Shown here piece by piece: positions 3,210 through 25,420 of a stretch of DNA of 64,000 nt. Each line of letters begins with the position of its first letter. The stretch's first letter is position 1. A program made the translations under genes and the position numbers. The notes beneath the pieces were generated by a model. The model searched no databases and was not told the DNA's origin. It was given only the letters and a program-made list of their open reading frames with translations. Origin of the DNA: a virus (taxonomy: Duplodnaviria; Heunggongvirae; Uroviricota; Caudoviricetes); IMG/VR virus record IMGVR_UViG_3300044295_000306, one strand, 5' to 3'.

Positions 3210-3304
3210 TGGTACTCCCCCACGGAATCGAACCGTGCCGTTGCAGCCCATCTGACCGCTCTCCCGGACTTATAAGATCCAGCCGCTCACCAAAGCTGAG
3301 GAGC
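3210..3304 (-). tRNA. type-II (long variable arm) tRNA with anticodon UAU (non-canonical combination)
   Basis: acceptor GCUCCUC/GGGGAGU, anticodon stem CUGGAU/GUCCGG loop CUUAUAA, 26-nt variable region, T-arm CACGG-UUCGAUU-CCGUG, A73, CCA encoded. Confidence 0.5.
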
Positions 3305-3387: not shown

Positions 3388-3506
3388 AATACATCAGGAT
3401 AGTTTTCTACTTTTTATTTATAGTGAGAAATCGAAACTCACTTTGATATTATTTTTCAAATATCTATCTAAAATGTAATTAGTTGCAGAACCTATCCTAT
3501 TTTTAA

Positions 3507-4925
3507 TTACAGACTATATCGATCTTTCATTACAGTTTCCATCATAATATATTCTGGTGTGAAATTATCCAGATTACCCTTAAGCAATGAAGTAAGAATA
3601 CTAGGACTGAATCCAGAAACAAGTGCAGTACCAGATTCATTAAATTTCACAGGCACGTTATCATGTGCATGTAGATTCCAGAAAACAACACGAGGAGCAT
3701 TATAACCATTCGCTTCATACTTCCGACGAATCATTTCAATTGCACTGTCATCGTGTTGAGTACAAGAATCAAATTGCATGTCTGAAAGAATCAATAGCAT
3801 TTCAGGCATTTCACTTTGTGGAACTTTACCAGCAACCGCTACATTCAAAATCTTTTTAAATGCAGCAACGATATCGGTATTCATACTCCATTTTGATCTA
3901 ATCATCTGATCAATTTTTTCGTGAATATTACCGGTCAAATGCATCAATTCAGGTGAACCAGAGAAAGTCAAGAACGTATCCTTAAACTTCCCTTTATTCT
4001 TTTCAGCTAGATATAGACCCAAACTGACTGATACATCAAGACAAGTAAGATTCTTGTTTCCACCAACAGAACAAATCATTGATCCAGAAACGTCAACTAG
4101 TGGAAGAATGTTTGCATTACCAACATAGTTAGGCAAAGCTTCCCATTGTTTTTGAATAAGATCCTTTTCCACTTTATCGTAAGTTTGATTAAAACCAAAA
4201 GCACCAATACGACCCTTCAATACATCATGAGGAAAAATAGCGGATGCATTCACTTTTACATTCTTTTCACCTTTTACAAGGGAATCAACATATTCAGCAT
4301 ACTTTGGAGTATGACGATTGAATGCTTTCTTATACCGTGCTGCTGCAATAGAAGGAACATGACTGAAATTGATATTTTCCCAATCATTCGCACACATTTG
4401 AGTTTCAACAACCTTAGTCAATTCTACCAAACGCTTCCGATAGAATTTTGGAGTCCAACCAAAATATGAACGCAATTCAACAGCCTTTTCACCCTTTCGA
4501 GGCATCCATTTTGCACAAAGTCCATGACCAGCATCAAGAGCATTCTTGATCAAATCAAATGCAACATTACGAACATCACCAGATTCAAAAACAAGAAGAT
4601 CGTCCCAACGACCCACTTCAGGAACTTTATGAAGAAGTCGAATAGCATCTTGTGGATAATTTTGTGCAAGATATTTTAGAATTTGCCGAAAGATTTCACG
4701 TTCACCAGCGCCACCGCGAACATCACGTGCCCATTGTGCAATACGCAATGCAATTTCAGCATCTTCAACATAAGCACCCACAAAAGAAGGAATAATGTTT
4801 TGACCGCGGGATGCGCCGATCTTGAAAAAAAGATCAACATTCTTATTTGCGGTTTCAACACGGGCTCGCATACCATTAGTGGTACGAGTTTCTTGATTAA
4901 TAACAGCATTAACGAAAGTATTCAT
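3507..4925 (-). CDS. TROVE-like/DUF2828-type protein with C-terminal von Willebrand A (MIDAS) domain
   Basis: N-terminal LFFKIGASRG... region, C-terminal VDVSGSM MIDAS motif; 472 aa. Confidence 0.5.
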   Translation of the reverse strand: MNTFVNAVINQETRTTNGMRARVETANKNVDLFFKIGASRGQNIIPSFVGAYVEDAEIALRIAQWARDVRGGAGEREIFRQILKYLAQNYPQDAIRLLHKVPEVGRWDDLLVFESGDVRNVAFDLIKNALDAGHGLCAKWMPRKGEKAVELRSYFGWTPKFYRKRLVELTKVVETQMCANDWENINFSHVPSIAAARYKKAFNRHTPKYAEYVDSLVKGEKNVKVNASAIFPHDVLKGRIGAFGFNQTYDKVEKDLIQKQWEALPNYVGNANILPLVDVSGSMICSVGGNKNLTCLDVSVSLGLYLAEKNKGKFKDTFLTFSGSPELMHLTGNIHEKIDQMIRSKWSMNTDIVAAFKKILNVAVAGKVPQSEMPEMLLILSDMQFDSCTQHDDSAIEMIRRKYEANGYNAPRVVFWNLHAHDNVPVKFNESGTALVSGFSPSILTSLLKGNLDNFTPEYIMMETVMKDRYSL

Positions 4926-5228: not shown

Positions 5229-5301
5229 TGGCACCCCTAGAAGGAGTCAAACCTCCGCAAGCTGGATTAGAAGTCCTGCCGCCGGATTCGCCGGTAGGGG
5301 T
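5229..5301 (-). tRNA. tRNA, probably Arg(UCU), compact D-arm
   Basis: acceptor ACCCCUA/UAGGGGU perfect, T-arm GGAGG-UUUGACU-CCUUC, anticodon stem CAGGA/UCCAG (one A.A) loop CUUCUAA, CCA encoded. Confidence 0.4.
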
Positions 5302-5308
5302 ATTGTTC

Positions 5309-5524: not shown

Positions 5525-5598
5525 TGGTGCCTCTTGACAGAATCGAACTGCCGTAACGGCCTTGTAAGGACCGAGTTCTACCATTAAACTAAAGAGGC
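5525..5598 (-). tRNA. tRNA-Val(UAC)
   Basis: acceptor GCCUCUU/AAGAGGC, anticodon stem CGGUC/GGCCG loop CUUACAA, T-arm GGCAG-UUCGAUU-CUGUC, CCA. Confidence 0.6.
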
Positions 5599-6162
5599 AT
5601 TTTCTTTCTTAATTCTTTCCATTAAATCATCAAAAAGAATTGGTGTATAATCAAGATGCTCAACCGACACACAATGATACCATGGATCGATCTTATTATC
5701 TTTCATAACACGCCTATCATGTAAATGTCCATGAATATTACCTGCAAATCTCCCTTTACTATCAGGATGAACGGGTACATGACTGAGAATAAAGTTATTC
5801 ATTACATGGTATGCTCTTATATCTCTAAAATACTTAACATATTCTTCTAGTTTAAAGATATCATGATTACCCTTAATAAGAACTTTATCTCCATTAAGCT
5901 TTTCGAGGGTAGGAAATGCTTTTTTGTTAATAAGAACATCACCAAGATGATAGACTTTATCTTTAGGACCAACAACGCTATTCCATTTAGCGATCATATC
6001 TTGATCCATTTGGAATGGATCATTCCATGGACGGAGTTTGGAAACTCCATCAGAGCCTGTAAATTTACAAACACCGAGGTGTCCGAAATGGGTATCTGCT
6101 ACTAAAAAAGTTTTCATAATTTTATATATGTTAGTGGGGTAATCTATGGGTAACGATCCCAT
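5584..6162 (-). CDS. calcineurin-like metallophosphoesterase (Ser/Thr phosphatase family)
   Basis: DTHFGH and GNHD metal-binding motifs. Confidence 0.6.
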   Translation of the reverse strand: MGSLPIDYPTNIYKIMKTFLVADTHFGHLGVCKFTGSDGVSKLRPWNDPFQMDQDMIAKWNSVVGPKDKVYHLGDVLINKKAFPTLEKLNGDKVLIKGNHDIFKLEEYVKYFRDIRAYHVMNNFILSHVPVHPDSKGRFAGNIHGHLHDRRVMKDNKIDPWYHCVSVEHLDYTPILFDDLMERIKKENASLV

Positions 6163-7033: not shown

Positions 7034-7516
7034 CTATGCTGCACGATACTGACTCATGACTTCTTTATAACGATCAGCACAGTAAGATGCCGCAAAAGCT
7101 TGTGGTTTTACTAGAGGAACAACATTACAAGTTCCACGAATATAACCGATAGCTTGTTGTACAACACAGCTTGAACCATGCATTTCATCTGGATTAATAT
7201 CTAGATGAACTTCTACTTCACGATCTTCCAGTACATCAGCAAGTTTTTGAAACATTTCGCTTGCTTTATATACTTCATTCATCAATCTCATTGCAGGTTT
7301 ATCTTTGCGTTGATCATAATCACGTTCTCTTGTTACTTCACCGAATACACGACAACCATGTTTACCATCAACGTGAACAACAACAACGACAGTATAATCA
7401 GCATACCATACGCCATTATTTCTAAATCTTTCCGAATCTGCACCAATATAGATACGAGATTCAGGACTTTGCGCGTCAATGAAAGCTTTTACTTCGTTTA
7501 AATTAATTTTCTTCAT
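7034..7516 (-). CDS. hypothetical protein, possible RNase H-like (DUF458-like) fold
   Basis: IYIGADSE...VVVVVH motif pattern; weak. Confidence 0.3.
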   Translation of the reverse strand: MKKINLNEVKAFIDAQSPESRIYIGADSERFRNNGVWYADYTVVVVVHVDGKHGCRVFGEVTRERDYDQRKDKPAMRLMNEVYKASEMFQKLADVLEDREVEVHLDINPDEMHGSSCVVQQAIGYIRGTCNVVPLVKPQAFAASYCADRYKEVMSQYRAA

Positions 7517-9597: not shown

Positions 9598-9604
9598 TTA
9601 ATTT

Positions 9605-9681
9605 TGGTTGCGGGAAACAGGAGTCGAACCTGATATCTCTGGCTTATGAGACCAGTATGTAAACCGTTTCACTCTCCCGCA
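9605..9681 (-). tRNA. tRNA with CAU anticodon (second copy; Met or Ile2)
   Basis: acceptor UGCGGGA/UCCCGCA, anticodon stem CUGGU/GCCAG loop CUCAUAA, T-loop UUCGACU, CCA. Confidence 0.55.
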
Positions 9682-9687
9682 TTTGTT

Positions 9688-9740
9688 TGGTGGTAGGCCA
9701 ACTATCTCATGAAAATAGTCGAATCCGGAATATGCCTACC
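9688..9740 (-). other. 53-nt tRNA-like minihelix / truncated tRNA pseudogene
   Basis: perfect 7-bp acceptor stem GGUAGGC/GCCUACC plus ACCA, single internal 5-bp hairpin ACUAU-UUUCAUGAG-AUAGU, no D- or T-arm. Confidence 0.4.
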
Positions 9741-9746
9741 GTTGAT

Positions 9747-9832
9747 TGGTGCGTCAGGTAGGATTCGAACCTACTCAGCCTGAGGCGACGGATTTACAGT
9801 CCGTTGTAACTCTCCCACTTTACCGCTGACGC
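9747..9832 (-). tRNA. tRNA-Tyr(GUA), bacterial type with long variable arm
   Basis: acceptor GCGUCAG/CUGACGC, D-stem GUAA/UUAC, anticodon stem ACGGA/UCCGU loop CUGUAAA, variable stem CCU/AGG, T-arm GUAGG-UUCGAAU-CCUAC, A73, CCA. Confidence 0.65.
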
Positions 9833-9852
9833 ATTGTTAGTTTGCTCAATTC

Positions 9853-9928
9853 TGGTCTCTCTAAAAGGATTTGAACCTTTACCTCATGCTCCCAAAGCAC
9901 GAACGCTGCCAGATTACGCCATAGAGAG
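9853..9928 (-). tRNA. tRNA-Pro(UGG)
   Basis: acceptor CUCUCUA/UAGAGAG, anticodon stem CGUGC/GCAUG loop UUUGGGA (G37), T-arm AAAGG-UUCAAAU-CCUUU, CCA. Confidence 0.6.
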
Positions 9929-10099
9929 ATATCTATCTATATAAGATTGAATTTCATTCTTATATCTGCTGTGCATATATTGAATTCTTGGGAGGATTAT
10001 TTTAGTGCCTCCCGGTCACCATCATCAACGCATTACCGTTTACCCCATGCTCGGTTATTTTCACGGCTTTCTTTGACTTAAATTAAAAGATGATCCTTT

Positions 10100-10214
10100 T
10101 ACGATATGTGGCCACACGCCGCGGACCCACGGCCCTATATCAACCCAATAGGAAAGGATCATTGACTGGCGCCGATACGGGGTTACGATCCCCGACTATA
10201 GCCTTGACAGGGCC
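10100..10214. other. GC-rich structured island inside AT-rich tRNA cluster, contains plus-strand promoter
   Basis: local GC far above background; GGCCCUAUA...UAUAG..GGGCC long-range stem; GGGG-TTACGAT-CCCC hairpin; TTGACA-18-TACACT facing the plus-strand ORF. Confidence 0.35.
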
Positions 10215-10553
10215 ATGTGCAGACCACTACACTATATCGGCTTTATATATAACTTTATGATTTATTATTACATTATGGTCGACCCTGATAAACCTAATAA
10301 ATGTAAATTAGGTATCACTAAAGATCCACAACAACGTATTAAAGCTTATAAAACGGCTGCTCCTAATTGCTATTTCTTAGCAGTCTATATTATACCTGAA
10401 AAATATCACGAAAAACGTATTCTTGATATCATTAAAGATGTTTTTCGTGTTGAAAGTGAATATGTTCATTGTCCACCTTCTCTTATTAAAAACATCGTTG
10501 AATGTTATTTTACAGATAATAACATTATTACTGGCGGAGAGGGAGGGACTTGA
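10215..10553 (+). CDS. T5orf172/GIY-YIG-superfamily homing-endonuclease-like protein (true start probably near 10275)
   Basis: KCKLGITKDPQQRIKAYKT motif; plus strand; 3' end overlaps minus-strand tRNA-Ser. Confidence 0.4.
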   Translation: MCRPLHYIGFIYNFMIYYYIMVDPDKPNKCKLGITKDPQQRIKAYKTAAPNCYFLAVYIIPEKYHEKRILDIIKDVFRVESEYVHCPPSLIKNIVECYFTDNNIITGGEGGT

Positions 10554-10625
10554 ACCCCCACACCCCTTACAGGGGCCCTCTGTTTTCAAGACAGCTGCCG
10601 CTAGGCCAACTCGGCTAACCTCTCC
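10532..10625 (-). tRNA. tRNA-Ser(UGA)
   Basis: acceptor GGAGAGG/CCUCUCC, loop CUUGAAA, long variable arm, T-arm GGGGG-UUCAAGU-CCCUC, G73, CCA. Confidence 0.6.
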
Positions 10626-10631
10626 TAATTC

Positions 10632-10704
10632 TGGAGCGTCCAGGCGGATTCGAACCGTCTCCGACAGCTTGGAAGGCTGTGTCCTCTCCCAGGAGAATGA
10701 ACGC
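10632..10704 (-). tRNA. tRNA-Gly(UCC)
   Basis: acceptor GCGUUCA/UGGACGC, anticodon stem ACAGC/GCUGU loop CUUCCAA, T-arm GACGG-UUCGAAU-CCGCC, U73, CCA. Confidence 0.55.
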
Positions 10705-10711
10705 ATATTCT

Positions 10712-10785
10712 TGGCAGCCCCGCTTGGAATCGAACCAAGATCGATAGATTCAAAATCTATTGTTTTACCATTACACTACGAGGCA
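10712..10785 (-). tRNA. tRNA-Gln(UUG)
   Basis: acceptor (U)GCCUCG/CGGGGCU, anticodon stem AUAGA/UCUAU loop UUUUGAA, T-arm CUUGG-UUCGAUU-CCAAG, G73, CCA. Confidence 0.55.
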
Positions 10786-10794
10786 ATTGTCTGA

Positions 10795-10819
10795 CTCCGC
10801 CCAGAGGAATCGAACCTCT
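10795..10819 (-). pseudogene. tRNA 3' fragment (T-arm plus 3' acceptor strand only)
   Basis: AGAGG-UUCGAUU-CCUCU T-arm followed by GGGCGGA with no matching 5' acceptor strand. Confidence 0.35.
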
Positions 10820-10845
10820 CTAATACGGAATCATATTATGATTTG

Positions 10846-10920
10846 CTGACCGAGCTGGAATCGAACCAGCCTATTCTTGATTAACAGTCAAGCCCGCCTC
10901 ACCTTGAACGGTATCGGTCA
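10846..10920 (-). tRNA. tRNA-Asn(GUU), no encoded CCA, embedded in 21-bp extended helix
   Basis: acceptor UGACCGA/UCGGUCA continued by perfect flanking inverted repeat ATATTATGATTTGC (10833-10846) / GCAAATCATAATAT (10921-10934); anticodon stem CUUGA/UCAAG loop CUGUUAA; T-arm GCUGG-UUCGAUU-CCAGC. Confidence 0.55.
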
Positions 10921-11065
10921 GCAAATCATAATATTTTCATTTCTTCTATACCATATTGAAATGCTCAACTTTTTCAGATTGACTAGAAATTGTAGATCAG
11001 TGTTGGCTGCCACCAACTAATCATCTAACCCCTTTTGGCAGTTAGAGGCTTAAGCATTTCAATAT

Positions 11066-11140
11066 GCAAACTCATTGTAGGCAGGACTCGAACCTGCAAG
11101 TGGCGTTTATTTCCACCGGCCCTCAATGAGAGCCTATGTT
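11066..11140 (-). other. degenerate tRNA-like element (acceptor-like stem + T-arm, no D-arm)
   Basis: CUCAUUG/CAAUGAG 7-bp stem, T-arm GCAGG-UUCGAGU-CCUGC, internal GUGG..CCAC hairpin; lies between CCATATTGAA-type inverted repeats. Confidence 0.3.
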
Positions 11141-11212
11141 TATCCATTCCATCACTACGAGTTTCTGGGCTCATGACTTCCCAGTATGGAGCAGGGTAAT
11201 TAAGCCTGCTTT

Positions 11213-11349
11213 ACCATATTGAAGCATACTAAGGAGTTGAACCTCCTACAACCATTGTAAGGTTGTCCTCACCGAAGAAATATGACATTCAATAATTAAA
11301 TTCTGTGATCAGCAGGTTAATTATTGACTGCTAATATGCTTCAATATGG
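11213..11349 (-). other. tRNA-like element with ~40-nt insertion, enclosed by 14-bp inverted repeat
   Basis: CCATATTGAAGCAT (11213-11226) / ATGCTTCAATATGG (11336-11349) form acceptor-like 14-bp helix; internal ACAACC-UUACAAU-GGUUGU hairpin and AGGAG-GUUCAAC-CUCCU T-arm-like hairpin. Confidence 0.3.
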
Positions 11350-11425
11350 CGCTCTCACGGGGATTCGAACCCACGCTTTCTGCCTTGAAAGGGCAGCGTC
11401 CTCAATACCAATAGACGATGAGAGC
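11347..11425 (-). tRNA. tRNA-Glu(UUC)
   Basis: acceptor GCUCUCA/UGAGAGC, anticodon stem CUGCC/GGCAG loop CUUUCAA, T-loop UUCGAAU, G73, CCA. Confidence 0.55.
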
Positions 11426-11452
11426 AAGTGTTTCCTAATTGTTAAAGAGCAC

Positions 11453-11490
11453 TACAAAAACAAAACCCCAAGCTTTTTAGACTTGGGGTT
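11453..11490 (-). terminator. Rho-independent terminator (minus strand)
   Basis: AACCCCAAG-UCUAAAAAG-CUUGGGGUU 9-bp stem followed by UUUUGUUUUUGU on the minus strand; second hairpin GGGGUUUGUGU..ACACAAACCCC just upstream. Confidence 0.55.
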
Positions 11491-11515
11491 TGTGTTAAAA
11501 CTTTTATTACCTACT

Positions 11516-11620
11516 TCACACAAACCCCTTCAAAAATCCAGCATATAGTTGATCGCATGTTGAGCGATTACCTAATGTCCAAATTGTTGATTGTTCGGGC
11601 TTATTCATTATCGATTTCAT
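11516..11620 (-). CDS. candidate leaderless 34-codon micro-ORF within a ~170-nt promoter-to-terminator transcript
   Basis: ATG lies ~7 nt after the -10 box of the promoter at 11627-11655; MKSIMNKPEQSTIWTLGNRSTCDQLYAGFLKGFV. Confidence 0.25.
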   Translation of the reverse strand: MKSIMNKPEQSTIWTLGNRSTCDQLYAGFLKGFV

Positions 11621-11626
11621 GTAACT

Positions 11627-11655
11627 ATTATACCTTAATATCTCTATTTTGTCAA
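11627..11655 (-). promoter_or_regulatory. sigma70-like promoter (TTGACA-17-TATAAT)
   Basis: RC GCTTGACAAAATAGAGATATTAAGGTATAAT. Confidence 0.55.
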
Positions 11656-11668: not shown

Positions 11669-11983
11669 TTATACAACATTTTCATCATAAGTAGCTGTTC
11701 CTAAAGAAAATTTGATGATTTTCATGGAATCCCACCTAATTGACCGCCATTCTTTCTTATCTAGATCAACAACAGCAATAACATCTTTAGAAACACGCCT
11801 GCTAGATGGCTTAGTCGCATCAAATGAAGGTACATCATTCTCATTCAATGAACAACGCATTACTCTTTCGGTACCATCTTTCTTAGTAAAAGTTACTTCA
11901 ACTTCTTCTGTTCTAAGTAACTGTTTAAACCATTCTTTCTTATAATCATTCCGAAAATTAAACTTTCCCATTACTTTCTCCAA
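11669..11983 (-). CDS. hypothetical protein
   Basis: 104-aa minus ORF. Confidence 0.4.
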   Translation of the reverse strand: MEKVMGKFNFRNDYKKEWFKQLLRTEEVEVTFTKKDGTERVMRCSLNENDVPSFDATKPSSRRVSKDVIAVVDLDKKEWRSIRWDSMKIIKFSLGTATYDENVV

Positions 11984-17865: not shown

Positions 17866-17884
17866 CGCCGGCGCCTTTGTTTAT

Positions 17885-17926
17885 TCAGTATGGAAGTATT
17901 ATATCGAATAATCGGAATTTAGTCAA
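17885..17926 (-). promoter_or_regulatory. conserved promoter module (TTGACT-17-TATAAT + conserved 5'UTR)
   Basis: RC TTGACTAAATTCCGATTATTCGATATAATACTTCCATACTGAATAAACAAAGG...ATG. Confidence 0.55.
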
Positions 17927-17931
17927 ATTAT

Positions 17932-18363
17932 TTAAATATTCGGTATTTTATCAATCCATTCTGGTATTTCGGTCATACTGCCAAGCTTTGAGGCTACATA
18001 GCAGCGCATTACAGCCACGAGGACGGTAGGACCAAAGTTAAATCTATTAGGTTTGTTCAGGGATGCGACATATCGTTCCTTTGGGTTGGATCGATTTGTG
18101 TGCTCTATTGTAAGGCATTCAGGACTGGCCAGCATTCGATTGATGATTCGGCCGGCGGCTTCCCATTTCCGGCTGAATAGAAGGTCAGGTCCTGTAGTAT
18201 AAGAGCCGTCTAATTCGCCCTCTTCATTCAGATTAAGTCGAAAAAGGGAACCGCTCCATTTATCCACATATAATTGATTCTCTGGTATACCCTCACAACG
18301 GGCCACCAGCCAATCTAGTACACAACCTTCGGCTTGGGCCACTTCGATTTGTTTAGTATTCAT
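17932..18363 (-). CDS. DUF2591 (NinX-like) family phage protein
   Basis: N-terminal KQIEVAQAEGCVLDWLVARCEG pattern. Confidence 0.4.
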   Translation of the reverse strand: MNTKQIEVAQAEGCVLDWLVARCEGIPENQLYVDKWSGSLFRLNLNEEGELDGSYTTGPDLLFSRKWEAAGRIINRMLASPECLTIEHTNRSNPKERYVASLNKPNRFNFGPTVLVAVMRCYVASKLGSMTEIPEWIDKIPNI

Positions 18364-18393
18364 TATTGATCCTTCAGATCATGATCCTTCGGA

Positions 18394-19038
18394 TCATTGA
18401 ACAGTCCGAATTCGAATAATCTTGTTCATCTTACGACCATGGGCCACATAACCGATGACGGGGATATTTTTATCATAACATGCGCGACAATCCAAACACT
18501 TACCGCCTTGGCTCGGGGCGGTGCATACCTTTACACCTTCCGGAGTCGTCATACCCTCAGGAAGAATGGTCGATCCATGCAATCCTTTAGTGAAGGTACC
18601 GTCAATTTCATCGGAAGAGTATCGCACCATCACGTTCGGCAAAGCTTGCATCTGGCCCAGAATACCAGCAAACTTAGGGAATTTATACATACGGGTGGGC
18701 AGCCAGTGTTTGGTATTAGGAGTCTGAACCATAATCTGATACATTTTTTCGGCCAACTTGATTGAATACATATCCCCCGAATCGAACCAACGGAAATACT
18801 TTTCCTTGGCCAAAGCATTCACAAAATCCTTCACAAAGGATTCCCGTTTCCAGTCCTCCTTGTTATTGGCACGAACCTTTTTAACAGCCCCAAAATGATA
18901 CATTCCAGTGGTCGCATAGCAACCCGAACAGGCCGAAACAAGCTTACCATCCGATCCTACCGAACCCGGACAAGTTTCCAAAGCTTGAAGCGACCAGGAT
19001 TTAGTACCAAGCTTCAAGGTTTTCGAAAGATTCAGCAT
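18394..19038 (-). CDS. conserved Cys-rich phage protein (GP88-like)
   Basis: KSWSL..TCPGS..DGKLVSACSGCYATTGMY motif. Confidence 0.35.
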   Translation of the reverse strand: MLNLSKTLKLGTKSWSLQALETCPGSVGSDGKLVSACSGCYATTGMYHFGAVKKVRANNKEDWKRESFVKDFVNALAKEKYFRWFDSGDMYSIKLAEKMYQIMVQTPNTKHWLPTRMYKFPKFAGILGQMQALPNVMVRYSSDEIDGTFTKGLHGSTILPEGMTTPEGVKVCTAPSQGGKCLDCRACYDKNIPVIGYVAHGRKMNKIIRIRTVQ

Positions 19039-19055
19039 GACAGTACCTTGTTTAT

Positions 19056-19097
19056 TCAGTATGGAAGTATTATATCGAATAATCAGAATTTAGTCAA
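19056..19097 (-). promoter_or_regulatory. conserved promoter module
   Basis: TTGACT-17-TATAAT, identical 5'UTR block. Confidence 0.55.
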
Positions 19098-19771
19098 GCG
19101 ACTTTAATAAAACGATTACCAAGAAGAATTGATGCACCCGTCAGGTCGGCGCCGGACAGGTTGGCTTCGGACAGATTAGCCCCGGTCAGGTTGGCTTTGG
19201 TCAGGTTGGCTTCGAACAGATCGGCGCCGTACAGGTTGGCGTAGGACAGGTTGGCGTCGGACAGGTAGGCGTCGGACATGTCGGCTTTGAACAGGTTGGC
19301 GTTGGACAGGTTGGCGTTGGACAGGTTGGCTCCGGACAGGTTGGCTTTGAACAGGTTGGCGTTGGACAGGTTGGCGCCGGACAGGTAGGCGTCGGACAGG
19401 TTGGCGTCGCACAGGTTGGCGCCGGACAGGTTAGCGAAGGACAGGTCGGCGTCGGACAGGTTGGCTTTGGACAGGTTGGCGTTGGACAGGTTGGCGCCGG
19501 ACAGGTCGGCGTAGGACAGGTTGGCTTTGGACAGGTTGGCGTAGAACAGGTTGGCGCCGGACAGGTCGGCGAAGGACAGGTCGGCGTTGGACAGGTTGGC
19601 GTTGGACAGGTCGGCTTTGTACAGGTCGGCGTTGGACAGGTTGGCTTTGGACAGGTCGGCTTTGGACAGGTCGACCATCTTTGCAACAGCTTCCTCAACG
19701 GCTTCCTTGATCGTTTTAGCCGTTTCTGATTCAAACAGGACTTGATCGTTGATGGATTTAATTTGAATCAT
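19094..19771 (-). CDS. pentapeptide-repeat protein, family member 2
   Basis: [29 protein letters not shown] + ~35 ANLSx pentapeptides. Confidence 0.65.
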
Positions 19772-19790
19772 CGGCGGCGCCTTTGTTTAA

Positions 19791-19832
19791 TCAGTATGGA
19801 AGTATTATATCGAATAATCAGAATTTAGTCAA
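19791..19832 (-). promoter_or_regulatory. conserved promoter module
   Basis: same module. Confidence 0.55.
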
Positions 19833-20450
19833 GAGCATTGAAGCGTTGGACAGGTCGGCTTTGGACAGGTCGGCTTTGGACAGGTCGGCTTTGGACAGGT
19901 TGGCTTTGTACAGGTAGGCGTTGGACAGGTTGGCTCCGGTCAGGTCGGCTTCGGACAGGTCGGCTTTGGACAGGTTGGCTTTGTACAGGTAGGCGTTGGA
20001 CAGGTTGGCTTCGGACAGGAACGCTCCGGTCAGGTCGGCTTCGGACAGGTCGGCTTTGGACAGGTTGGCGTCGGACAGGTCGGCTTCGGTCAGGTCGGCT
20101 TCGGACAGGTTGGCGTCGGATAGATCGGCTTTGGACAGGTTGGCGTCGGACAGGTCGGCTTCGGACAGGTCGGCTTCGGACAGGTTGGCGTCGGATAGAT
20201 CGGCTTTATACAGATTAACTTTGGACAGATCAGCCCCGGCCAGATTAGTCCCGGACAGATTAGCTTTGGATAGATTAGCTTTGTACAGATAAGCCCCGGC
20301 CAGATTAGCTTTAGAAAGATCAACCCTGGACAGATCAGCCCTGAACAGGTTTACCTTTAATTTAACGGCTTCCTCGACGGCTTTCTTGATCGTTTTAGCC
20401 GTTTCTGATTCAAACAGGACTTGATCGTTGATGGATTTAATTTGAATCAT
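19818..20450 (-). CDS. pentapeptide-repeat protein, family member 3
   Basis: conserved N-terminus + ADLSx repeats. Confidence 0.65.
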
Positions 20451-20468
20451 TTGTTATACTTTGTTTAA

Positions 20469-20510
20469 TCAGTATGGAAGTATTATATCGAATAATCAGA
20501 ATTTTGTCAA
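20469..20510 (-). promoter_or_regulatory. conserved promoter module
   Basis: TTGACA-17-TATAAT. Confidence 0.55.
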
Positions 20511-20553
20511 GCGGCTGGTTCACGCCGCCGAAGCGGCTTTAATCTAGGCTAGC

Positions 20554-20949
20554 CTACCGGTAGGCTTCGGACAGGTTGGCTTCGGACAGATCAGCGCCGG
20601 TCAGGTTAGCGCCGTACAGGTCGGCTCCGGTCAGGGTCGCTTTGTACAGGTTGGCTTTGGACAGGTTGGCGTAGGACAGGTTTGCTTTGGACAGGTTGGC
20701 GTAGGACAGATCGGCGTCGGTCAGGTCGGCGTAGGTCAGATCGGCGTTGGTCAGGTTGGCGTCGGACAGGTTGGCGTTGATCAGGTCGGCGTTGATCAGG
20801 TAGGCTTTGGACAGGTTAGCGCCGTACAGGTTGGCGTAGGACAGGCCGACCATCTTTGCAATAGCTTCCTCAACGGCTTCCTTGATCGTTTTAGCCGTTT
20901 CTAATTCAAACAGGACTTGATCGTTGATGGATTTAATTTGAATCATCTT
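20554..20949 (-). CDS. pentapeptide-repeat protein, family member 4 (start placed at conserved MIQIKS; track ORF extends to 21102)
   Basis: conserved N-terminus [29 protein letters not shown] + repeats; promoter module at 20967-21008. Confidence 0.55.
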
Positions 20950-21004
20950 CCAGCGCCTTTGTTTATTCAGTATGGAGATATTATAGTGAATATTCGGTAT
21001 TTTG

Positions 21005-21379
21005 TCAAGCGGCTGGAAGAACCCCAGGAAATTCGCCGGCGATATAGCCGTAAGAGATTCCCAGACAGTATTCCAAATAATTATTGTCGCCCTTGGTATC
21101 ATACGCTTGATGGAGCCATTCTATAGCCATTTCACGGCTTTTGGCTCCACAGGACATAAGCTGAAGGATTCGGCGCTCAAAATCATCTTCGGCCAGAATC
21201 TGACGGCTCTGCTCTTCATTCCAGGAAGCATCAGCGGCCTTCATTAGATCATTCCAAGTGGATTGTTTTTGATCGTCCGTGGCTGTGGACCAGAAGGTCC
21301 AGAAGTCGATAGACGGACGAATTCCATATGCATCTTTGTGGAGATCGGAGACCGTATCATTGCAATAGGTATAGATCAT
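21005..21379 (-). CDS. hypothetical protein
   Basis: 124-aa ORF, promoter module at 21409-21440. Confidence 0.4.
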
Positions 21380-21546
21380 TTGGATATATTCTTGTTTATT
21401 CAGTATGGAAGTATTATATCGAATATTCGGTATTTTGTCAAATGGTATATTATACAGAAAGAGGAGGGTTTAGCCCCCTGGCGGGTAGGGGTTAGGATTT
21501 TCAGGTGGATTAGGGACGAGTTCTAAAGGTGGCTAGTGTCATTTTA

Positions 21547-22380
21547 TCAACCGCAAATTGTATATTCAGCCAGGTTTTTCCAGTTGCTACCACCACCCTT
21601 ACGGATGATAGTAACCTGAATGAGAGTCCGTAGTGTTAATTCCTTTACTTTGTCTGCTAAGGATTCGATCAGGTCGATAGCATCTTGTTTATATTGTTGT
21701 TTATATTCTTGCATAAAATCATCTTGGGAGAGCAGGAATCGCATTCTATCGATTTTCTGTTGGCGCGTCATAGAAAGATCAACGGCCATGGAGCGGGAGA
21801 TGATGGCTTGATCCATTTGAATGGATGAAAGATTGGAAATGAAGATTACACGACCACGGAATTCAAAGCTAGTCGGCAAATCCTCATCGCGGATATCGGC
21901 TCTCCAGGAGATAATACGGCGACTGTAAGAATCCAGCGCGGCTTTAAGTAGATTAAGGGACACTGGATCCTTCAGAACGGAATCGCAATCATCGAAAACG
22001 ATGACGCCATTTTGATTCTCATACAAGGTCCTGTAGAGACCTTTAGGCGTAGAATAGCCTTTAACTACGATGAAGGACTTTTTTGTACTCAGGGAAGATC
22101 CGACTTCAAAGGATGCGAGGTCGGAATAATCTTGCATGCCACAGGATTGGAGGGCTTTTAAGACGTTAAAGGTTTTGCCGAGGCCGCCCGGGCCGGTGAT
22201 TACGACTGAGGATTGGTCGCCTTTACAGAGGAGTTGGACCATATCTTGGACAAAGCCGAATCGTTCATTGATGGTGAATCTGGAGGAGGGAACGGTTTCA
22301 AGCGCAGGCGTTTGGTTAGTAACGCGGTTCATGTAGTTTTTGGTTTTGCGAAAGCCGTTCTTGGGTACGCCGCGGGGCAT
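21547..22380 (-). CDS. P-loop ATPase (AAA-like)
   Basis: Walker A GPGGLGKT, Walker B IVFDDCDS. Confidence 0.55.
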   Translation of the reverse strand: MPRGVPKNGFRKTKNYMNRVTNQTPALETVPSSRFTINERFGFVQDMVQLLCKGDQSSVVITGPGGLGKTFNVLKALQSCGMQDYSDLASFEVGSSLSTKKSFIVVKGYSTPKGLYRTLYENQNGVIVFDDCDSVLKDPVSLNLLKAALDSYSRRIISWRADIRDEDLPTSFEFRGRVIFISNLSSIQMDQAIISRSMAVDLSMTRQQKIDRMRFLLSQDDFMQEYKQQYKQDAIDLIESLADKVKELTLRTLIQVTIIRKGGGSNWKNLAEYTICG

Positions 22381-22399
22381 GGATTACTCCGTTAATCAA

Positions 22400-22441
22400 T
22401 CAGTATGGAAGTATTATATCGAATAATCGGTATTTTGTCAA
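22400..22441 (-). promoter_or_regulatory. conserved promoter module
   Basis: TTGACA-17-TATAAT. Confidence 0.55.
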
Positions 22442-22653
22442 AGGTAGTTTACGGCGATATCATATGCAGGAAGTTTAATGCCGTAATTATCAAACAAGGA
22501 AACAATTTCCTTGAAATATTGATCTTGAAAAAGTTTGGCGGTTTTAATATCGTTCTTTTTAAACATTGCGTCGATCATTTCGCATGAGACCATGATTGAA
22601 TTGATACGGCTAGCCAGATCGCGTTGGACTTTTTTCGAGAGTTTGGCGGTCAT
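22438..22653 (-). CDS. hypothetical protein
   Basis: 71-aa ORF; module at 22674-22715. Confidence 0.35.
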   Translation of the reverse strand: MTAKLSKKVQRDLASRINSIMVSCEMIDAMFKKNDIKTAKLFQDQYFKEIVSLFDNYGIKLPAYDIAVNYL

Positions 22654-22952
22654 ATTTGGCTTTCCTTGTTTATTCAGTATGGAAGTATTATATCGAATAA
22701 TCGGAATTTAGTCAAGTGTTTGATTGGTGGGTGGTGCGGAGGAGGGAGATATTAGGTGCGATGAAGTCTAAATTGGAGAGGTCGATATTGGCTTGTTTGG
22801 CTTGGATGAGGGTTTCTTTACAGGATTTGGCGGTGGTGGATTGGAAGAGGACTTTATTGGTGGATGAAATGATTTGGAAGATCATTAGGAAGTCCTTTAT
22901 ATATTCAATATAGGGTCATTATATCGAATAATCGGTATTTTGTCAAATGATA

Positions 22953-23333
22953 TTACGGTATGTTAGTACCAGATAAATCAGCATCGGTTAGATCGGCACC
23001 CCAGAGATTTGCTTCTAACAGGTTTGCCTCTTTCAGGTCGGCTTGACACAAATTCGCAAAAGATAGACTGGAAAATGCTAGATTAGCGCGCCAAAGGGTA
23101 GCACCCTTAAGATATGCATATTTAAGATCGGCGCCTTTGAGATTGGCACCTTTCATGTATGCACAATAGAATAGACCATCTTGGAGATTAGCGCCAGCTA
23201 GATCAGCCCCGCCCAAATCGATTTCTGCCAAATTAATATTCAGTTTAACGGCTTCCTCGACGGCTTGTTTGATTGTTTTAGCTGTTTTAGATTCAAACAA
23301 TACTTGACCGGTAATGGATTTGATTTGGATCAT
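22953..23333 (-). CDS. pentapeptide-repeat protein, family member 5
   Basis: MIQIKSITGQVLFESKTAKTIKQAVEEAV + A(D/N)L(K/S)GA repeats; module at 23351-23392. Confidence 0.6.
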   Translation of the reverse strand: MIQIKSITGQVLFESKTAKTIKQAVEEAVKLNINLAEIDLGGADLAGANLQDGLFYCAYMKGANLKGADLKYAYLKGATLWRANLAFSSLSFANLCQADLKEANLLEANLWGADLTDADLSGTNIP

Positions 23334-23392
23334 TTGTTATACTTTCTTTATCAGTATGGAAGTATTATATCGAATAATAGGTATTTTGTCAA

Positions 23393-23641
23393 TCAATTTT
23401 CGTGAACAGTCCCGAGGTATTTGTTGAGGATCTGTGCATCTTCTTCGGGGCGGCTCTTGACTTTCAATGAAGTGCTTTCACCGTAGCAAACATAACGGTT
23501 ATCTTCAATGAAACAGAATCCAGCGCCAATTACTTTGCCACCAATCACTTGGGCCATTTCTGAATGATTGATATAATCGCTGAATACGATACCAACCGTT
23601 ACAGTTTGGTCCAAAATGACATACTTGCTACGATAAGACAT
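23393..23641 (-). CDS. hypothetical protein
   Basis: 82-aa ORF; variant module (TTGACG) at 23663-23704. Confidence 0.35.
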   Translation of the reverse strand: MSYRSKYVILDQTVTVGIVFSDYINHSEMAQVIGGKVIGAGFCFIEDNRYVCYGESTSLKVKSRPEEDAQILNKYLGTVHEN

Positions 23642-23870
23642 GACTTGTTCACGCTTCTGTTGTTCAGTATAAGAATATTATATTAGGATTAGGATTTTTC
23701 GTCAAGCGTTTTTTGAAGAATGATAAGCCTGGTATTGATGACAGAGAGTCCATATATAATGGTACTGTAGCCCAAAATCTTGTATAACGTAACATCCAAC
23801 GTCATCAAATAGCTTACCACAAGGGCAATGGCCAAGCCTTCAAGATTATCCACACTAAAGAATTTCATGA

Positions 23871-24251
23871 TTAACCTGCAACCTTTAAAAGGGCATCCAA
23901 TACTTCAAGCTGAGAACCACTCAGCATCGGGACTGGCCCGGGCGCTGCAGGAAGATCAAGATAAGAATACCGAGACCGGATATATACATACAGGTTATCC
24001 ACAATATCTTTACTTTCTTTGATCATAAAGCCGGTATTTTCACGAAGAATCTTAATGGCACTAACCTTATTACCATTCTTGATTTCGCTAACAACCCTGT
24101 AAAGATATTCTTCTGACTTTTTCGGTTTATTGGTCAGATTGATAAAAGTTTCTGGATCTTCTTTGGCCAGGCGAACAATCATCGCTCGAAAGTCCAGGTC
24201 GGAATTCATGAGCAGATCGATGGCTTGTTTATAATACATATCTTTGGTCAT
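23871..24251 (-). CDS. small protein with ribosomal bL12 (L7/L12) C-terminal-domain-like motif, paralog A
   Basis: KVSAIKILRENTGFMIKESKDIVDNL resembles bL12 CTD [23 protein letters not shown]; module at 24269-24311. Confidence 0.45.
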   Translation of the reverse strand: MTKDMYYKQAIDLLMNSDLDFRAMIVRLAKEDPETFINLTNKPKKSEEYLYRVVSEIKNGNKVSAIKILRENTGFMIKESKDIVDNLYVYIRSRYSYLDLPAAPGPVPMLSGSQLEVLDALLKVAG

Positions 24252-24317
24252 TTGAAAATCCTTGTTTATTCAGTATGGAAGTATTATATCGAATAATGGA
24301 TATTATGTCAAGCGGTA

Positions 24318-24509
24318 TTATTCGCCCCAATCATCCTTTTCGCCATCTTTTTCGCGGTATAAATCAAGGCGATATGAGCGAACTGGCGACAGAAAAACTA
24401 TTTTATTACAACAACTTACACGGACTTTGACAGTGCGATCATATGTATCGGTATTAATTAGAGCCACCTCAGGCACTTTTGCAATACGATTACAATTTGG
24501 GCATTTCAT
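24318..24509 (-). CDS. small zinc-ribbon protein
   Basis: CPNC...CC pairs; module at 24527-24569. Confidence 0.4.
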   Translation of the reverse strand: MKCPNCNRIAKVPEVALINTDTYDRTVKVRVSCCNKIVFLSPVRSYRLDLYREKDGEKDDWGE

Positions 24510-24574
24510 GTTTTATTATCCTGCTATTCAGTAGCAGTTAATTATAGTGAATAATAGGTATTTTGTCAACTAAT

Positions 24575-24886: not shown

Positions 24887-24937
24887 TGTTATTTCCTAAT
24901 CAATATGGAAACAGTATACCAAATAATAGGAATTTTG

Positions 24938-25303: not shown

Positions 25304-25420
25304 GTTGTTTATATCGATTCCTAATAGGATTTTCTTGGGATTCTAGATAGTCGGCCAGCAATCCTAGTGCGGCTAGGATGATACAAAATAGACCGACACT
25401 AAGGATTGCTTCGAGCATGA

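What the first reader, a model, noticed from the sequence alone, without database searches (positions are those of the whole stretch)
9688..11349. Degenerate tRNA-like elements enclosed in long perfect inverted repeats, a 53-nt minihelix and a tRNA fragment
tRNA-Asn (10846-10920) sits in a hairpin whose acceptor stem is extended to 21 bp by flanks ATATTATGATTTGC / GCAAATCATAATAT. Two further elements (11066-11140 and 11213-11349) have acceptor-like stems extended by CCATATTGAA(A/G)(T/C)... inverted repeats and keep only T-arm-like and anticodon-like hairpins. 9688-9740 is a 53-nt minihelix with a 7-bp acceptor stem, ACCA and one hairpin. 10795-10819 is an orphan T-arm plus 3' acceptor strand. 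The repeated CCATATTGAA box (4 copies, both orientations) and the extended stems look like processing or mobility signals. Candidates are RNase III/E sites, tRNA-derived mobile or recombination elements, or decoys for host anticodon nucleases.
Basis: seen in the sequence. Interest (0 to 1): 0.6.

Follow-up and report, generated by a model that had tools for sequence, protein, structure and literature searches.

The report
Long-stem RNAs fused to phage tRNA ends
Inside a phage tRNA operon sit small structured RNAs closed by a conserved ~20-bp stem that starts in the CCA end of the preceding tRNA; they belong to a large, apparently undescribed, virus-only RNA family whose function is still unknown.

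Summary
All features lie on the minus strand, in the promoter-proximal part of a 30-tRNA phage array.

- **The two CCATATTGAA repeats.** They close RNA hairpin elements at 11350..11213 (A) and 11067..10951 (B). B's repeat encloses 10969-11049, not the T-arm at 11079-11095. That T-arm belongs to a separate tRNA-like RNA.
- **A large family.** A and B belong to a family found in at least 120 IMG/VR viral contigs. The helix is usually 18-21 bp and starts at the NCCA of the preceding tRNA or tRNA-like RNA. It encloses 54-103 nt of "cargo" that falls into at least 43 unrelated groups.
- **It acts as RNA.** G·U outnumbers A·C 150 to 5 on the tRNA-sense strand. The largest cargo group shows compensatory changes in 19 of 38 pairs.
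- **It looks new.** No Rfam family matches, no true member was found in 596 Gb of cellular genomes, and no paper with the motif was found.
- **tRNA-Asn.** Its 21-bp stem belongs to a second discrete class: 7 of 1087 tRNAs have an acceptor stem extended by 11-14 bp.
- **The small elements.** The minihelix and the "orphan T-arm" both fold as acceptor-type minihelices.

Best reading: RNA-level processing and packaging helices for co-transcribed small RNAs. The nuclease and the cargo function are unknown.

The parts
11347..11425 (-). tRNA-Glu(UUC). Its 3' GCCA forms the first paired nucleotides of element A.
   Evidence: ARAGORN; Rfam tRNA 48 bits; the stem starts 3 nt before the tRNA end.
11213..11350 (-). 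Element A. A 20-bp closing helix (GCCAUAUUGAAGCAUAUUAG / UUAGUAUGCUUCAAUAUGGU, 2 G·U) encloses a 98-nt interior. The interior holds an 11-bp hairpin, a C(UUCG)G hairpin, an anticodon-like hairpin (loop UUACAAU) and a T-arm-like hairpin.
   Evidence: Inverted repeat I3; MFE -55.5 kcal/mol, z = -7.8; stem 20 bp, loop 98 nt; family member. The cargo has no homologue in the loci held here or, via its stem 19-mer, in IMG/VR.
11073..11161 (-). tRNA-like RNA of 89 nt with no encoded CCA, an 8+3-bp acceptor-like stem, a canonical T-arm and a long extra arm. It directly precedes element B.
   Evidence: ARAGORN 'Asn att'; no Rfam hit; fold z = -3.7. An orthologue in L083 (about 80% identity) is also followed by GCAUAUUGAA and carries compensatory acceptor-stem changes GUAG/CUAC to GCGG/CCGC.
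10951..11067 (-). Element B. A 17-bp closing helix (CAUAUUGAAAUGCUUAA / UUGAGCAUUUCAAUAUG) encloses an 81-nt interior with three hairpins.
   Evidence: Inverted repeat I4; MFE -40.4 kcal/mol, z = -4.5; family member.
10833..10934 (-). tRNA-Asn(GUU), 10920..10845, with its acceptor stem extended by 14 bp of leader/trailer pairing to a perfect 21-bp helix. CCA is not encoded (G-CAAAUC follows the stem). It is the only canonical Asn tRNA called in the window.
   Evidence: Inverted repeat I1; z = -7.8. It is one of 7 of 1087 tRNAs with an 11-14-bp extension; the other 1080 have 0-3 bp.
10792..10833 (-). T-arm minihelix. A 9-bp acceptor-like stem (UGAUUCCGU / GCGGAGUCA) plus T-arm AGAGG-UUCGAUU-CCUCU, with no D or anticodon arm and no CCA. 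It lies 6 nt upstream of tRNA-Gln.
   Evidence: Fold -19.4 kcal/mol, z = -3.7. Similar T-arm hairpin + NCCA units precede family elements in L038, L062 and L084.
9688..9740 (-). A 53-nt minihelix. 7-bp acceptor stem GGUAGGC/GCCUACC, a 12-nt connector, a 10-bp hairpin (an alternative 8-bp stem gives the 7-nt loop UUCAUGA) and an encoded ACCA. It occupies a tRNA slot between tRNA-Tyr and tRNA-Met.
   Evidence: Fold -18.7 kcal/mol, z = -3.6; flanking tRNAs at 6 and 7 nt; no homologue found.
11627..11655 (-). Consensus sigma-70-type promoter (TTGACA-17-TATAAT) upstream of the tRNA-Glu end of the array. A terminator-like hairpin at 11491..11463 lies between it and tRNA-Glu.
   Evidence: Pattern scan, 12 of 12 matches.
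3507..4925 (-). Ro-like RNA-binding protein gene (DUF2828 + DUF7788) inside the tRNA array. It is a candidate partner but is not obligatorily linked to the elements.
   Evidence: Pfam; PHROG 850; annotated 'Ro-like RNA binding protein' in mycobacteriophages; co-occurrence tests.
7034..7516 (-). RNase H-like (PF04308/DUF458) gene inside the array. It is the protein that most often accompanies element-bearing arrays.
   Evidence: Pfam. Present in 26 loci of the motif scan and in 0 of 33 Ro-like loci without elements. Also present in phage DLP_6, which has no such stems.

Best explanation
The region is part of a polycistronic phage tRNA transcript read from the minus strand. Besides ordinary tRNAs it encodes tRNA-derived and tRNA-attached small RNAs.

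Elements A and B belong to a virus-specific family. Each member is a structured 54-103-nt 'cargo' RNA closed by a helix of about 20 bp. The 5' strand of the helix begins with the discriminator and CCA of the preceding tRNA, or of a tRNA-like minihelix. It continues as U plus an A/U-rich stretch and then RYRYAYU. The 3' strand (ARUGUGUUUCAAUAUGG) ends at, or a few nucleotides before, the next gene.

**Shown here**
- The helix is selected as RNA on the tRNA strand.
- Its length is narrowly fixed.
- It is fused to NCCA.
- At least one cargo type is a conserved fold.

**Inferred**
- The helix is a processing and packaging device. A double-strand-specific endonuclease (an RNase III-type staggered cut in a two-turn helix), or RNase P acting at the base of a hairpin next to CCA, would separate the neighbours.
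- The upstream tRNA would be left with a short trailer that exonucleases trim back to CCA.
- The cargo would be released as an exonuclease-resistant stable small RNA.

The 21-bp helix around the CCA-less tRNA-Asn would be a second use of the same two-turn-helix logic. The two minihelices are further acceptor-end modules of the same array. What the cargos do is unknown.
For: - With the gap relaxed, these loci and the window gave 88 distinct elements in tRNA arrays, co-oriented with the tRNAs.
- **RNA-level selection.** With orientation set only by the tRNA strand, helix positions 10-17 are 532 Watson-Crick, 150 G·U, 5 A·C and 17 other.
- **Fixed helix length.** 68 of 88 helices are 18-21 bp, and pairing collapses after bp 17.
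- **Fusion to NCCA.** 41 of 88 share CCA with a called tRNA. Most of the rest follow a T-arm or acceptor-like helix plus NCCA. The nucleotide after CCA is U in 62 of 62.
- **Next gene close by.** The next tRNA starts within 0-3 nt in 11 elements and within 20 nt in 28.
- **Cargo.** 43 clusters. Cluster 0 (the 20 members aligned) has 19 of 38 pairs with compensatory double changes.
- **Virus-specific.** 27 hits in 596 Gb of cellular genomes, none of them a family member. In 25 the stem stops at 10-13 bp. Two are unrelated near-perfect long palindromes (38 and 52 bp). Only one of the 27 loci holds any tRNA.
- **Second class is discrete.** Acceptor-stem extension is 0-3 bp in 1080 tRNAs and 11-14 bp in 7, with total helices of 18-21 bp.
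- **Window folds.** z = -4.5 to -7.8.
- **Precedent.** E. coli RNase P removes hairpins 2-7 nt downstream of a tRNA CCA (PMC4176162).
Against: - No cleavage or expression data exist. The nuclease is entirely inferred.
- The helix has no 3' RCCA tail, which argues against a canonical RNase P substrate.
- RNase III does not need the sequence conservation seen in the stem. This hints at a sequence-specific partner, or simply at shared ancestry.
- Most tRNAs in the same arrays are separated by 2-10 nt without any such helix, so the helix is not needed for tRNA release in general.
- Related phages with similar arrays (L125, DLP_6) lack the stems.
- The counts come from related phages and are not phylogenetically independent.
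Confidence: 0.45

Rival explanations
1. Y-RNA-like scaffolds. The conserved stem would be the binding site of the phage Ro-like (DUF2828) protein encoded in the same array. The variable cargo would be an effector or tether module, as in Ro60/Y RNA and YrlA.
For: - A Ro-like gene lies inside the array.
- The architecture matches Y RNAs: 5'/3' ends paired in a long conserved stem, variable interiors, about 100-130 nt, several copies per genome, some with tRNA-like parts (PMC4201824).
- In L005, L025, L054 and L113 an element lies 25-80 nt downstream of the Ro-like stop codon.
- The 5' strand AUUGAAG weakly resembles the YrlA motif GNCGAAN0-1G.
Against: - 33 IMG/VR loci with Ro-like genes (39-62% identity), mostly in co-oriented tRNA arrays, have no such stems.
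- L007 and L032 have elements but no Ro-like gene at the syntenic place.
- The Rfam YrlA model does not hit the elements.
- The stem is a perfect helix without the bulge typical of Ro sites.
- The fusion to the tRNA CCA is not explained.
Confidence: 0.15
2. Acceptor-end or CCA mimics acting as decoys or sponges for host factors that act on tRNA 3' ends, such as toxins or nucleotidyltransferases that modify CCA, or exonucleases. The cargos could also be aptamer-like inhibitors of host defence proteins.
For: - The array is rich in acceptor-stem/CCA modules without a working anticodon arm: minihelices at 9740..9688 and 10833..10792, and T-arm hairpin + NCCA units in relatives.
- The cargos are diverse, patchily distributed and virus-only, as expected for arms-race functions.
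- Array genes include Ro-like, RNase H-like and phosphoesterase proteins.
Against: There is no direct evidence. In the precursor the CCA is base-paired, so it is not an accessible mimic. No known defence target was identified. One literature search found nothing comparable.
Confidence: 0.15
3. DNA-level elements. These would be miniature transposons with terminal inverted repeats, or recombination sites comparable to integron attC sites, that shuffle tRNA cassettes between phages and target tRNA 3' ends.
For: - Conserved termini with unrelated interiors, many copies and patchy distribution among related phages.
- The same cargo type follows different tRNAs.
- Homing-endonuclease-type genes are in the array.
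Against: - G·U versus A·C is 150 to 5 on one strand.
- The cargo has RNA-type covariation and a UUCG loop.
- No direct target duplications were noticed in the flanks printed. This was not analysed systematically.
- No transposase or integrase was found next to the elements in the window.
- Identical contigs from four samples show no presence/absence polymorphism, though this test has little power.
Confidence: 0.07
4. Decaying tRNA pseudogenes and neutral spacers with no function of their own.
For: - E1 and E3 have no detectable homologues and look like tRNAs with internal deletions.
- The cargos of A and B are singletons.
Against: - For the stem family: strong purifying selection on pairing, fixed length and covariation.
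- For the 89-nt tRNA-like RNA: compensatory changes against L083.
- For E1 and E3: intact 7-9-bp stems, fold z about -3.6, and exact tRNA-like spacing.
Confidence: 0.08

Closest known systems
Phage T4 species 1 and species 2 stable RNAs (rnaC, rnaD) in the T4 tRNA cluster
   Same: They are small (about 120-140 nt) non-tRNA RNAs encoded between and after tRNA genes and co-transcribed with them. rnaC has a tRNA-type T-arm next to its 3' end. Their function is still unknown (annotation and sequence).
   Different: The T4 RNAs lack the 17-20-bp CCAUAUUGAA-type closing helix and are not fused to the CCA of the upstream tRNA. No sequence similarity was found.
Ro60-associated Y RNAs / bacterial YrlA (Rfam RF02553)
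   Same: The 5' and 3' ends form a long conserved stem. The interior is variable, the size is 80-130 nt, there are several paralogues, and some have tRNA-like domains. They are encoded near a Ro-type protein gene (PMC4201824).
   Different: The YrlA model does not match. The motif is different and the helix is perfect without a bulge. The stem is fused to the tRNA CCA. Most Ro-like loci lack the elements, and some element-rich loci lack a Ro-like gene.
RNase III processing stems, such as the leader/trailer helices that flank 16S and 23S rRNA, and phage T7 RNase III sites
   Same: Complementary flanks form a helix of about two turns around a stable RNA inside a polycistronic transcript. The helix length here is 18-21 bp.
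   Different: No cleavage was shown. The sequence conservation and the precise start at NCCA are not features of known RNase III sites. The comparison rests on my own knowledge of RNase III substrates.
RNase P removal of hairpins just downstream of tRNA CCA (E. coli valU, lysT, leuX terminators)
   Same: A hairpin directly follows the CCA of a tRNA and is removed endonucleolytically 2-7 nt after the CCA (PMC4176162).
   Different: Those hairpins are short Rho-independent terminators at operon ends. Here the helix includes the CCA itself, encloses a large structured RNA and lies inside the operon.
HDV-like theta ribozymes downstream of phage tRNAs
   Same: They are structured RNA elements placed immediately 3' of phage tRNA genes and are thought to release the tRNA 3' end (PMC10879173, seen, abstract only).
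   Different: No Rfam ribozyme family matches at E up to 10. A simple 20-bp terminal helix around 43 unrelated interiors is not a conserved catalytic core.

Membership tests
tRNA (Rfam RF00005 / ARAGORN) | Cloverleaf that scores above the Rfam gathering threshold (29 bits) | tested here: not met
   Elements A and B, E1, E3 and the 89-nt tRNA-like RNA give no RF00005 hit even at E up to 10. Only tRNA-Asn 10849-10918 passes, at 35.3 bits. ARAGORN alone calls 11073-11161.
YrlA / Y RNA | [quoted passage not shown] | tested here: not met
   No YrlA hit on the window elements. The only YrlA hit in L007 (26 bits against a gathering score of 69) spans two ordinary tRNAs.
YrlA / Y RNA | Encoded next to, and co-occurring with, a Ro60-type protein gene | tested here: inconclusive
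   The closest clade has an element 25-80 nt after the Ro-like gene. But 33 other Ro-like loci lack the elements, and L007 and L032 have elements without a Ro-like gene at the syntenic place.
YrlA / Y RNA | Physical binding by the Ro-type protein | not testable with these tools
   This needs a binding experiment such as a gel shift or co-immunoprecipitation.
RNase III processing stem | Uninterrupted double helix of about two turns (about 20 bp) formed by flanks of a stable RNA | tested here: met
   Contiguous helix of 18-21 bp in 68 of 88 elements. tRNA-enclosing helices total 18-21 bp. Window stems are 20, 17 and 21 bp.
RNase III processing stem | Staggered cleavage of both strands by RNase III | not testable with these tools
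   This needs an in vitro cleavage assay or end mapping in wild-type and rnc-mutant hosts.
Transposon-type terminal inverted repeats (MITE) | Repeat mismatches show no strand bias, because selection acts on double-stranded DNA | tested here: not met
   G·U 150 against A·C 5 on the tRNA-sense strand.
Transposon-type terminal inverted repeats (MITE) | Direct target-site duplications and empty sites in close relatives | tested here: inconclusive
   No direct duplications were noticed in the flanks printed; this was not analysed systematically. The only near-identical contigs are 100% identical, so no empty-site test was possible.
Self-cleaving ribozymes next to phage tRNAs (HDV-like theta, hatchet, twister and others) | Conserved catalytic core detectable with Rfam models | tested here: not met
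   No ribozyme family at E up to 10 in 9600-11550, nor at E up to 5 in L007 and L094 elements. The interiors fall into 43 unrelated clusters.
T4 rnaC / rnaD | Sequence or structure homology to the T4 species 1 and 2 RNAs | tested here: not met
   The T4 sequences were read directly. There is no CCAUAUUGAA-type stem and no shared sequence. The resemblance is only in genomic context.

The most novel reading that the evidence does not exclude
A previously unrecognised, virus-only class of modular non-coding RNAs. A universal helix of about 20 bp is welded to the CCA end of a tRNA. It would serve as a common expression, processing and stability chassis for dozens of unrelated structured RNA cargos. 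These cargos would ride on the very strong tRNA operon transcription. They could act as protein-binding or anti-defence RNAs, possibly with a dedicated phage nuclease or RNA-binding partner such as the RNase H-like DUF458 protein or the Ro-like DUF2828 protein.
Probability: 0.35. Interest if true: 0.8.

Novelty: new variant of a known kind. Interest (0 to 1): 0.66.

Why it matters
Phage tRNA arrays are usually read as codon-usage or anti-defence tRNA supplies. The DNA between the tRNAs is ignored or called pseudogene debris.

Here that DNA encodes a large family of conserved structured RNAs with a shared closing helix. It occurs in at least 120 uncultured viral contigs, has at least 43 cargo types, and was not found in cellular genomes or in Rfam.

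If the helix is a processing device, it shows how phages mature tRNAs and co-express small RNAs from one transcript. If the cargos are effectors, they are an untapped set of phage regulatory or anti-defence RNAs.

A cultured phage with variant stems could make the question testable. It is Synechococcus phage BUCT-ZZ01, whose recorded host is Synechococcus elongatus PCC 7942. From my own knowledge, that host is genetically tractable.

Tried and rejected
- **Close relatives in cultured phages.** Megablast of 9600-11500 found none. Distant blastn found only tRNA pieces and the T5orf172 ORF. Concatenated cargo representatives gave no match.
- **Rfam at permissive thresholds.** Searches on the window and on two relatives found only tRNAs and noise. 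The gathering-threshold run on 11 loci listed only tRNAs among the 150 rows shown.
- **Ro-like protein as obligatory partner.** Rejected after the 33-locus test.
- **DUF458 RNase H-like protein as a sufficient marker.** Rejected, because phage DLP_6 has it without stems.
- **Host origin of the motif.** Rejected by the scan of cellular genomes.
- **Link between the element 5' strand and the phage's transcript starts (CCAUACUGAA).** Judged coincidental. 'CAUA' after the -10 box is seen at promoter-like sites in other contigs too.
- **Promoter function of the 5' strand.** No -35/-10 match upstream of element A.
- **Microdiversity test for mobility.** The contigs found are 100% identical. One look-up failed because of a start-codon choice.
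- **Homologues of the A and B cargos.** None found. Hits to B's 18-mer lie in coding DNA.
- **T4 rnaC/rnaD as family members.** Rejected on sequence.
- **Literature.** Searches for the motif, for DUF2828, and for tRNA-array processing or decoys found nothing that describes the family.
Full report
**1. Setting**

The window is phage-like. ARAGORN finds 30 tRNA genes, all on the minus strand, between 3210 and 11425. Rfam confirms most of them and adds one more tRNA at 2159-2233. The finding lies at the promoter-proximal end of this array. A 12-of-12 TTGACA-17-TATAAT match sits at 11655..11627, and a terminator-like hairpin at 11491..11463.

Genes interleaved with the tRNAs include:
- a Ro-like RNA-binding protein (DUF2828 + DUF7788), 3507-4925;
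- an RNase H-like DUF458 protein, 7034-7516;
- a phosphoesterase, 5584-6162;
- a GIY-YIG/NUMOD3 endonuclease.

No cultured phage is close at the DNA level. The best protein matches are:
- the Ro-like protein of Synechococcus phage BUCT-ZZ01, 49% identity;
- the DUF458 protein of Stenotrophomonas phage DLP_6, 60% identity.

**2. Checking the observation**

Read on the minus strand, the region runs in this order:
- tRNA-Glu (11425..11347)
- element A (11350..11213)
- a 51-nt spacer with two hairpins
- an 89-nt tRNA-like RNA (11161..11073)
- element B (11067..10951)
- tRNA-Asn in a 21-bp helix (10934..10833)
- a T-arm minihelix (10833..10792)
- tRNA-Gln, and further downstream tRNA-Tyr
- the 53-nt minihelix (9740..9688)
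- tRNA-Met.

All six features fold much better than shuffled controls, with z between -3.6 and -7.8. The three stems of 20, 17 and 21 bp stand out against a background maximum of 13 bp in the 14-kb array region. CCATATTGAA is present three times exactly and once with one mismatch.

Two corrections are needed. The second repeat encloses 10969-11049, not the T-arm at 11079-11095. That T-arm belongs to the separate tRNA-like RNA. The "orphan" T-arm is part of a complete minihelix with both acceptor strands.

**3. The CCAUAUUGAA elements belong to a large family**

In most hits the complementarity continues well beyond the searched nonamers. The consensus is CCAUAUUGAA-RYRYAYU ... ARUGUGY-UUCAAUAUGG.

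The hits lie inside phage tRNA arrays and on the tRNA strand.

I fixed the orientation from the tRNA strand alone. Helix positions 10-17 of the 88 distinct elements are then 532 Watson-Crick, 150 G·U, 5 A·C and 17 other pairs. Pairing collapses at position 18. Wobble pairs on one strand only mean selection on an RNA of the tRNA sense, not on a DNA palindrome.

Other measured properties:
- The contiguous helix, including the pairs formed by the discriminator and CCA, is 18-21 bp in 68 of 88 elements.
- In 41 of 88 the CCA is that of an ARAGORN-called tRNA: Leu 13, Glu 7, Gln 6, and eight other identities.
- In most of the remainder the preceding sequence is a T-arm and/or acceptor-like helix followed by NCCA.
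- The next tRNA starts 0-3 nt after the helix in 11 cases and within 20 nt in 28.
- Looser searches show the family is wider than the nonamer. Stems starting CCAUAUUAAAAC, CCAUAUAAAAAC, CCAUAAUUAAGU, CCAUAGUAAAAC, CCAUUUGUUUAG and others sit at the same place.
- The nucleotide after CCA is U in 62 of 62. The next eight nucleotides are 6-8 A/U in 59 of 62.

BUCT-ZZ01 carries such variant stems in its array of 28 tRNA genes and a tmRNA gene.

**4. The interior is not a spacer**

The 88 interiors fall into 43 similarity clusters. The largest has 21 members, of which 20 were aligned. Its consensus fold is a multi-helix junction in which 19 of 38 predicted pairs keep pairing through changes on both sides. 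It also has invariant unpaired stretches: GAAG, GAAAA and CGAGAG.

Some clusters are tRNA-like, with a canonical T-arm abutting the 3' strand. These include cluster 3 and the window's element A. Most are not.

The cargos of A and B have no homologue in the loci held here. Scans of IMG/VR with the 5'-strand 19-mer of A and 18-mer of B also found none.

**5. Specificity and novelty controls**

The stricter pattern CCATATTGAA-N(88-118)-TTCAATATGG hit only 27 places in 596 Gb of bacterial and archaeal genomes, and none is a family member. In 25 the stems stop at 10-13 bp. Two are unrelated near-perfect long palindromes (38 and 52 bp). Only one of the 27 loci holds any tRNA.

No Rfam 15 family matches the elements, at E up to 10 in the window and up to 5 in relatives. 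Representatives of nine cargo clusters find nothing in 50,697 cultured phage records. Full-text searches for the motif and for related concepts found no description.

**6. tRNA-Asn and the minihelices**

Across 1087 tRNAs in the loci held, the leader/trailer extension of the acceptor stem is 0-3 bp in 1080 and 11-14 bp in 7, with nothing in between. The seven are Asn twice (the window and L064, with different sequences), Gly, Pro, Met, Thr and His.

In this class the leader ends in YUUUG-type sequence. The trailer starts N-CAAA, so CCA is usually not encoded. The total helix is 18-21 bp. A KVP40-like Vibrio phage shows similar tRNA-enclosing helices. The tRNA-Asn hairpin is therefore a member of a rare but discrete and recurrent class.

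The 89-nt tRNA-like RNA has an orthologue in L083 at about 80% identity. That orthologue is followed by the same GCAUAUUGAA element start and carries compensatory acceptor-stem changes. This argues against a decaying pseudogene.

The two minihelices have no detectable homologues. Comparable small hairpin + NCCA units do precede family elements in relatives:
- CCGAGUUCGAGUCUCGG-ACCA
- GCCGGUUCAAGUCCGGC-GCCA
- GGGCACCGAAAGGUGUCCA

**7. Candidate protein partners**

*Ro-like protein.* It is adjacent to tRNA arrays in the window, BUCT-ZZ01, Felixounavirus wV8 and Vibrio phage D482. In the closest clade an element follows its stop codon by 25-80 nt.

However, 33 IMG/VR loci with Ro-like genes at 39-62% identity lack the stems. 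L007 and L032 have elements but no Ro-like gene at the syntenic place. The link is therefore not obligatory.

*DUF458 protein and the phosphoesterase.* They occur in 26 and 22 loci of the motif scan, against 0 and 1 of the 33 Ro-like loci. This may simply reflect lineage. DLP_6 has the DUF458 gene and no stems. No partner can be assigned.

**8. Mechanism**

*Shown:* an RNA-level helix of fixed, roughly two-turn length, fused to NCCA, enclosing conserved structured RNAs, inside tRNA operons of one group of uncultured phages.

*Inferred:* the helix is a processing and packaging device. A two-turn perfect helix is the classical substrate form of RNase III (my own knowledge). E. coli RNase P removes hairpins that follow a tRNA CCA by 2-7 nt (PMC4176162). 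Either would separate the neighbours and leave the cargo closed by a stable stem.

*Against:* there are no cleavage data. The helix has no RCCA tail. The stem shows more sequence conservation than RNase III needs. Most tRNAs in the arrays do without such helices.

*Rivals:*
- Y-RNA-like scaffolds for the Ro-like protein;
- acceptor-end decoys or aptamer cargos;
- DNA-level cassettes, disfavoured by the wobble asymmetry;
- neutral debris, disfavoured for the family but possible for the two minihelices.

**9. Verdict**

The main result goes beyond the finding. The two repeats are members of a widespread, virus-specific and apparently undescribed RNA family.

I rate it a new variant of a known kind: stable small RNAs embedded in tRNA operons and bounded by processing helices. 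Interest is 0.66. Confidence is high that the family and its RNA nature are real, and moderate to low for the mechanism.

Noticed in passing
window 17,880-29,150 (minus strand): Thirteen consensus promoter matches (TTGAC[A/T]-17-TATAAT). Twelve are near-identical cassettes followed by ACTTCCATACT, or ATCTCCATACT in one. Six of them continue as CCATACTGAATAAACAAGG before short ORFs. This looks like a repeated early-promoter/leader cassette.
   Followed up: partly
window 3507-4925 (-) and 3388-3506 (-): A Ro-like (DUF2828 + DUF7788) gene lies inside the tRNA array. It is followed by a 119-nt structured spacer with a 7+6-bp closing stem and three hairpins, just before tRNA-Leu. In four relatives a CCAUUUUGAA- or CAUAUUGAA-type element occupies this position.
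   Followed up: partly
L124 (Vibrio phage D482) 19989-21996; Vibrio phage vB_ValM_PVA8: In vB_ValM_PVA8 the Ro-like and DUF458 matches are adjacent, next to the tRNA array (65927-66358 and 66407-67840, same strand). In D482 a 175-aa hypothetical gene sits in the equivalent place just after the Ro-like gene. This may be a conserved gene pair.
   Followed up: partly
window 5230-5308 (-): A tRNA-like sequence with acceptor ACCCCUA/UAGGGGU, a T-arm-like hairpin and a UCU anticodon-like loop. It ends in GCCA. Neither ARAGORN nor Rfam called it. It may be a divergent tRNA-Arg(UCU), an isoacceptor otherwise missing from the list.
   Followed up: no
window 10090-10162 (-) and the whole 9929-10166 gap: A 238-nt non-coding gap lies between tRNA-Asp and tRNA-Pro. 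Four nucleotides after the CCA of tRNA-Asp, a 73-nt hairpin begins (10-bp stem AUGAUCCUUU/AAAGGAUCAU, G+C-rich interior). Further hairpins follow. These may be additional small RNAs.
   Followed up: no
window 10215-10553 (+): A small T5orf172/MUG113-type ORF lies on the strand opposite to the tRNAs. Its 3' end overlaps tRNA-Ser (10532-10625) in antisense. Its homologues, at about 70% DNA identity, are in 190-kb Vibrio phages.
   Followed up: partly
window 11463-11655 (-): A perfect consensus promoter is followed about 135 nt later by a strong terminator-like hairpin, just upstream of tRNA-Glu. This could be a short leader or small RNA unit, or an attenuator for the array. A 47-aa ORF overlaps it.
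   Followed up: no
window 3210-3304 (-); L007, L038, L062, L082, L083, L096, L112 and others: Unusually long (88-99 nt) genes that ARAGORN calls 'tRNA-Ile(tat)' recur in these arrays. The window's 89-nt tRNA-like RNA at 11073-11161 is orthologous to one of them (L083). This may be a distinct tRNA-like family.
   Followed up: partly
L067 860-1250; L121 15749-16167: tmRNA genes with tag peptides are embedded in the tRNA arrays of two related viral genomes. In BUCT-ZZ01 the 3' strand of a CCAUAUUAAAGC-type stem overlaps the called tmRNA start.
   Followed up: no
window 11669-11971 (-): The small ORF just upstream of the array promoter carries a WYL_2 domain, according to precomputed Pfam hits on identical contigs.
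   Followed up: no
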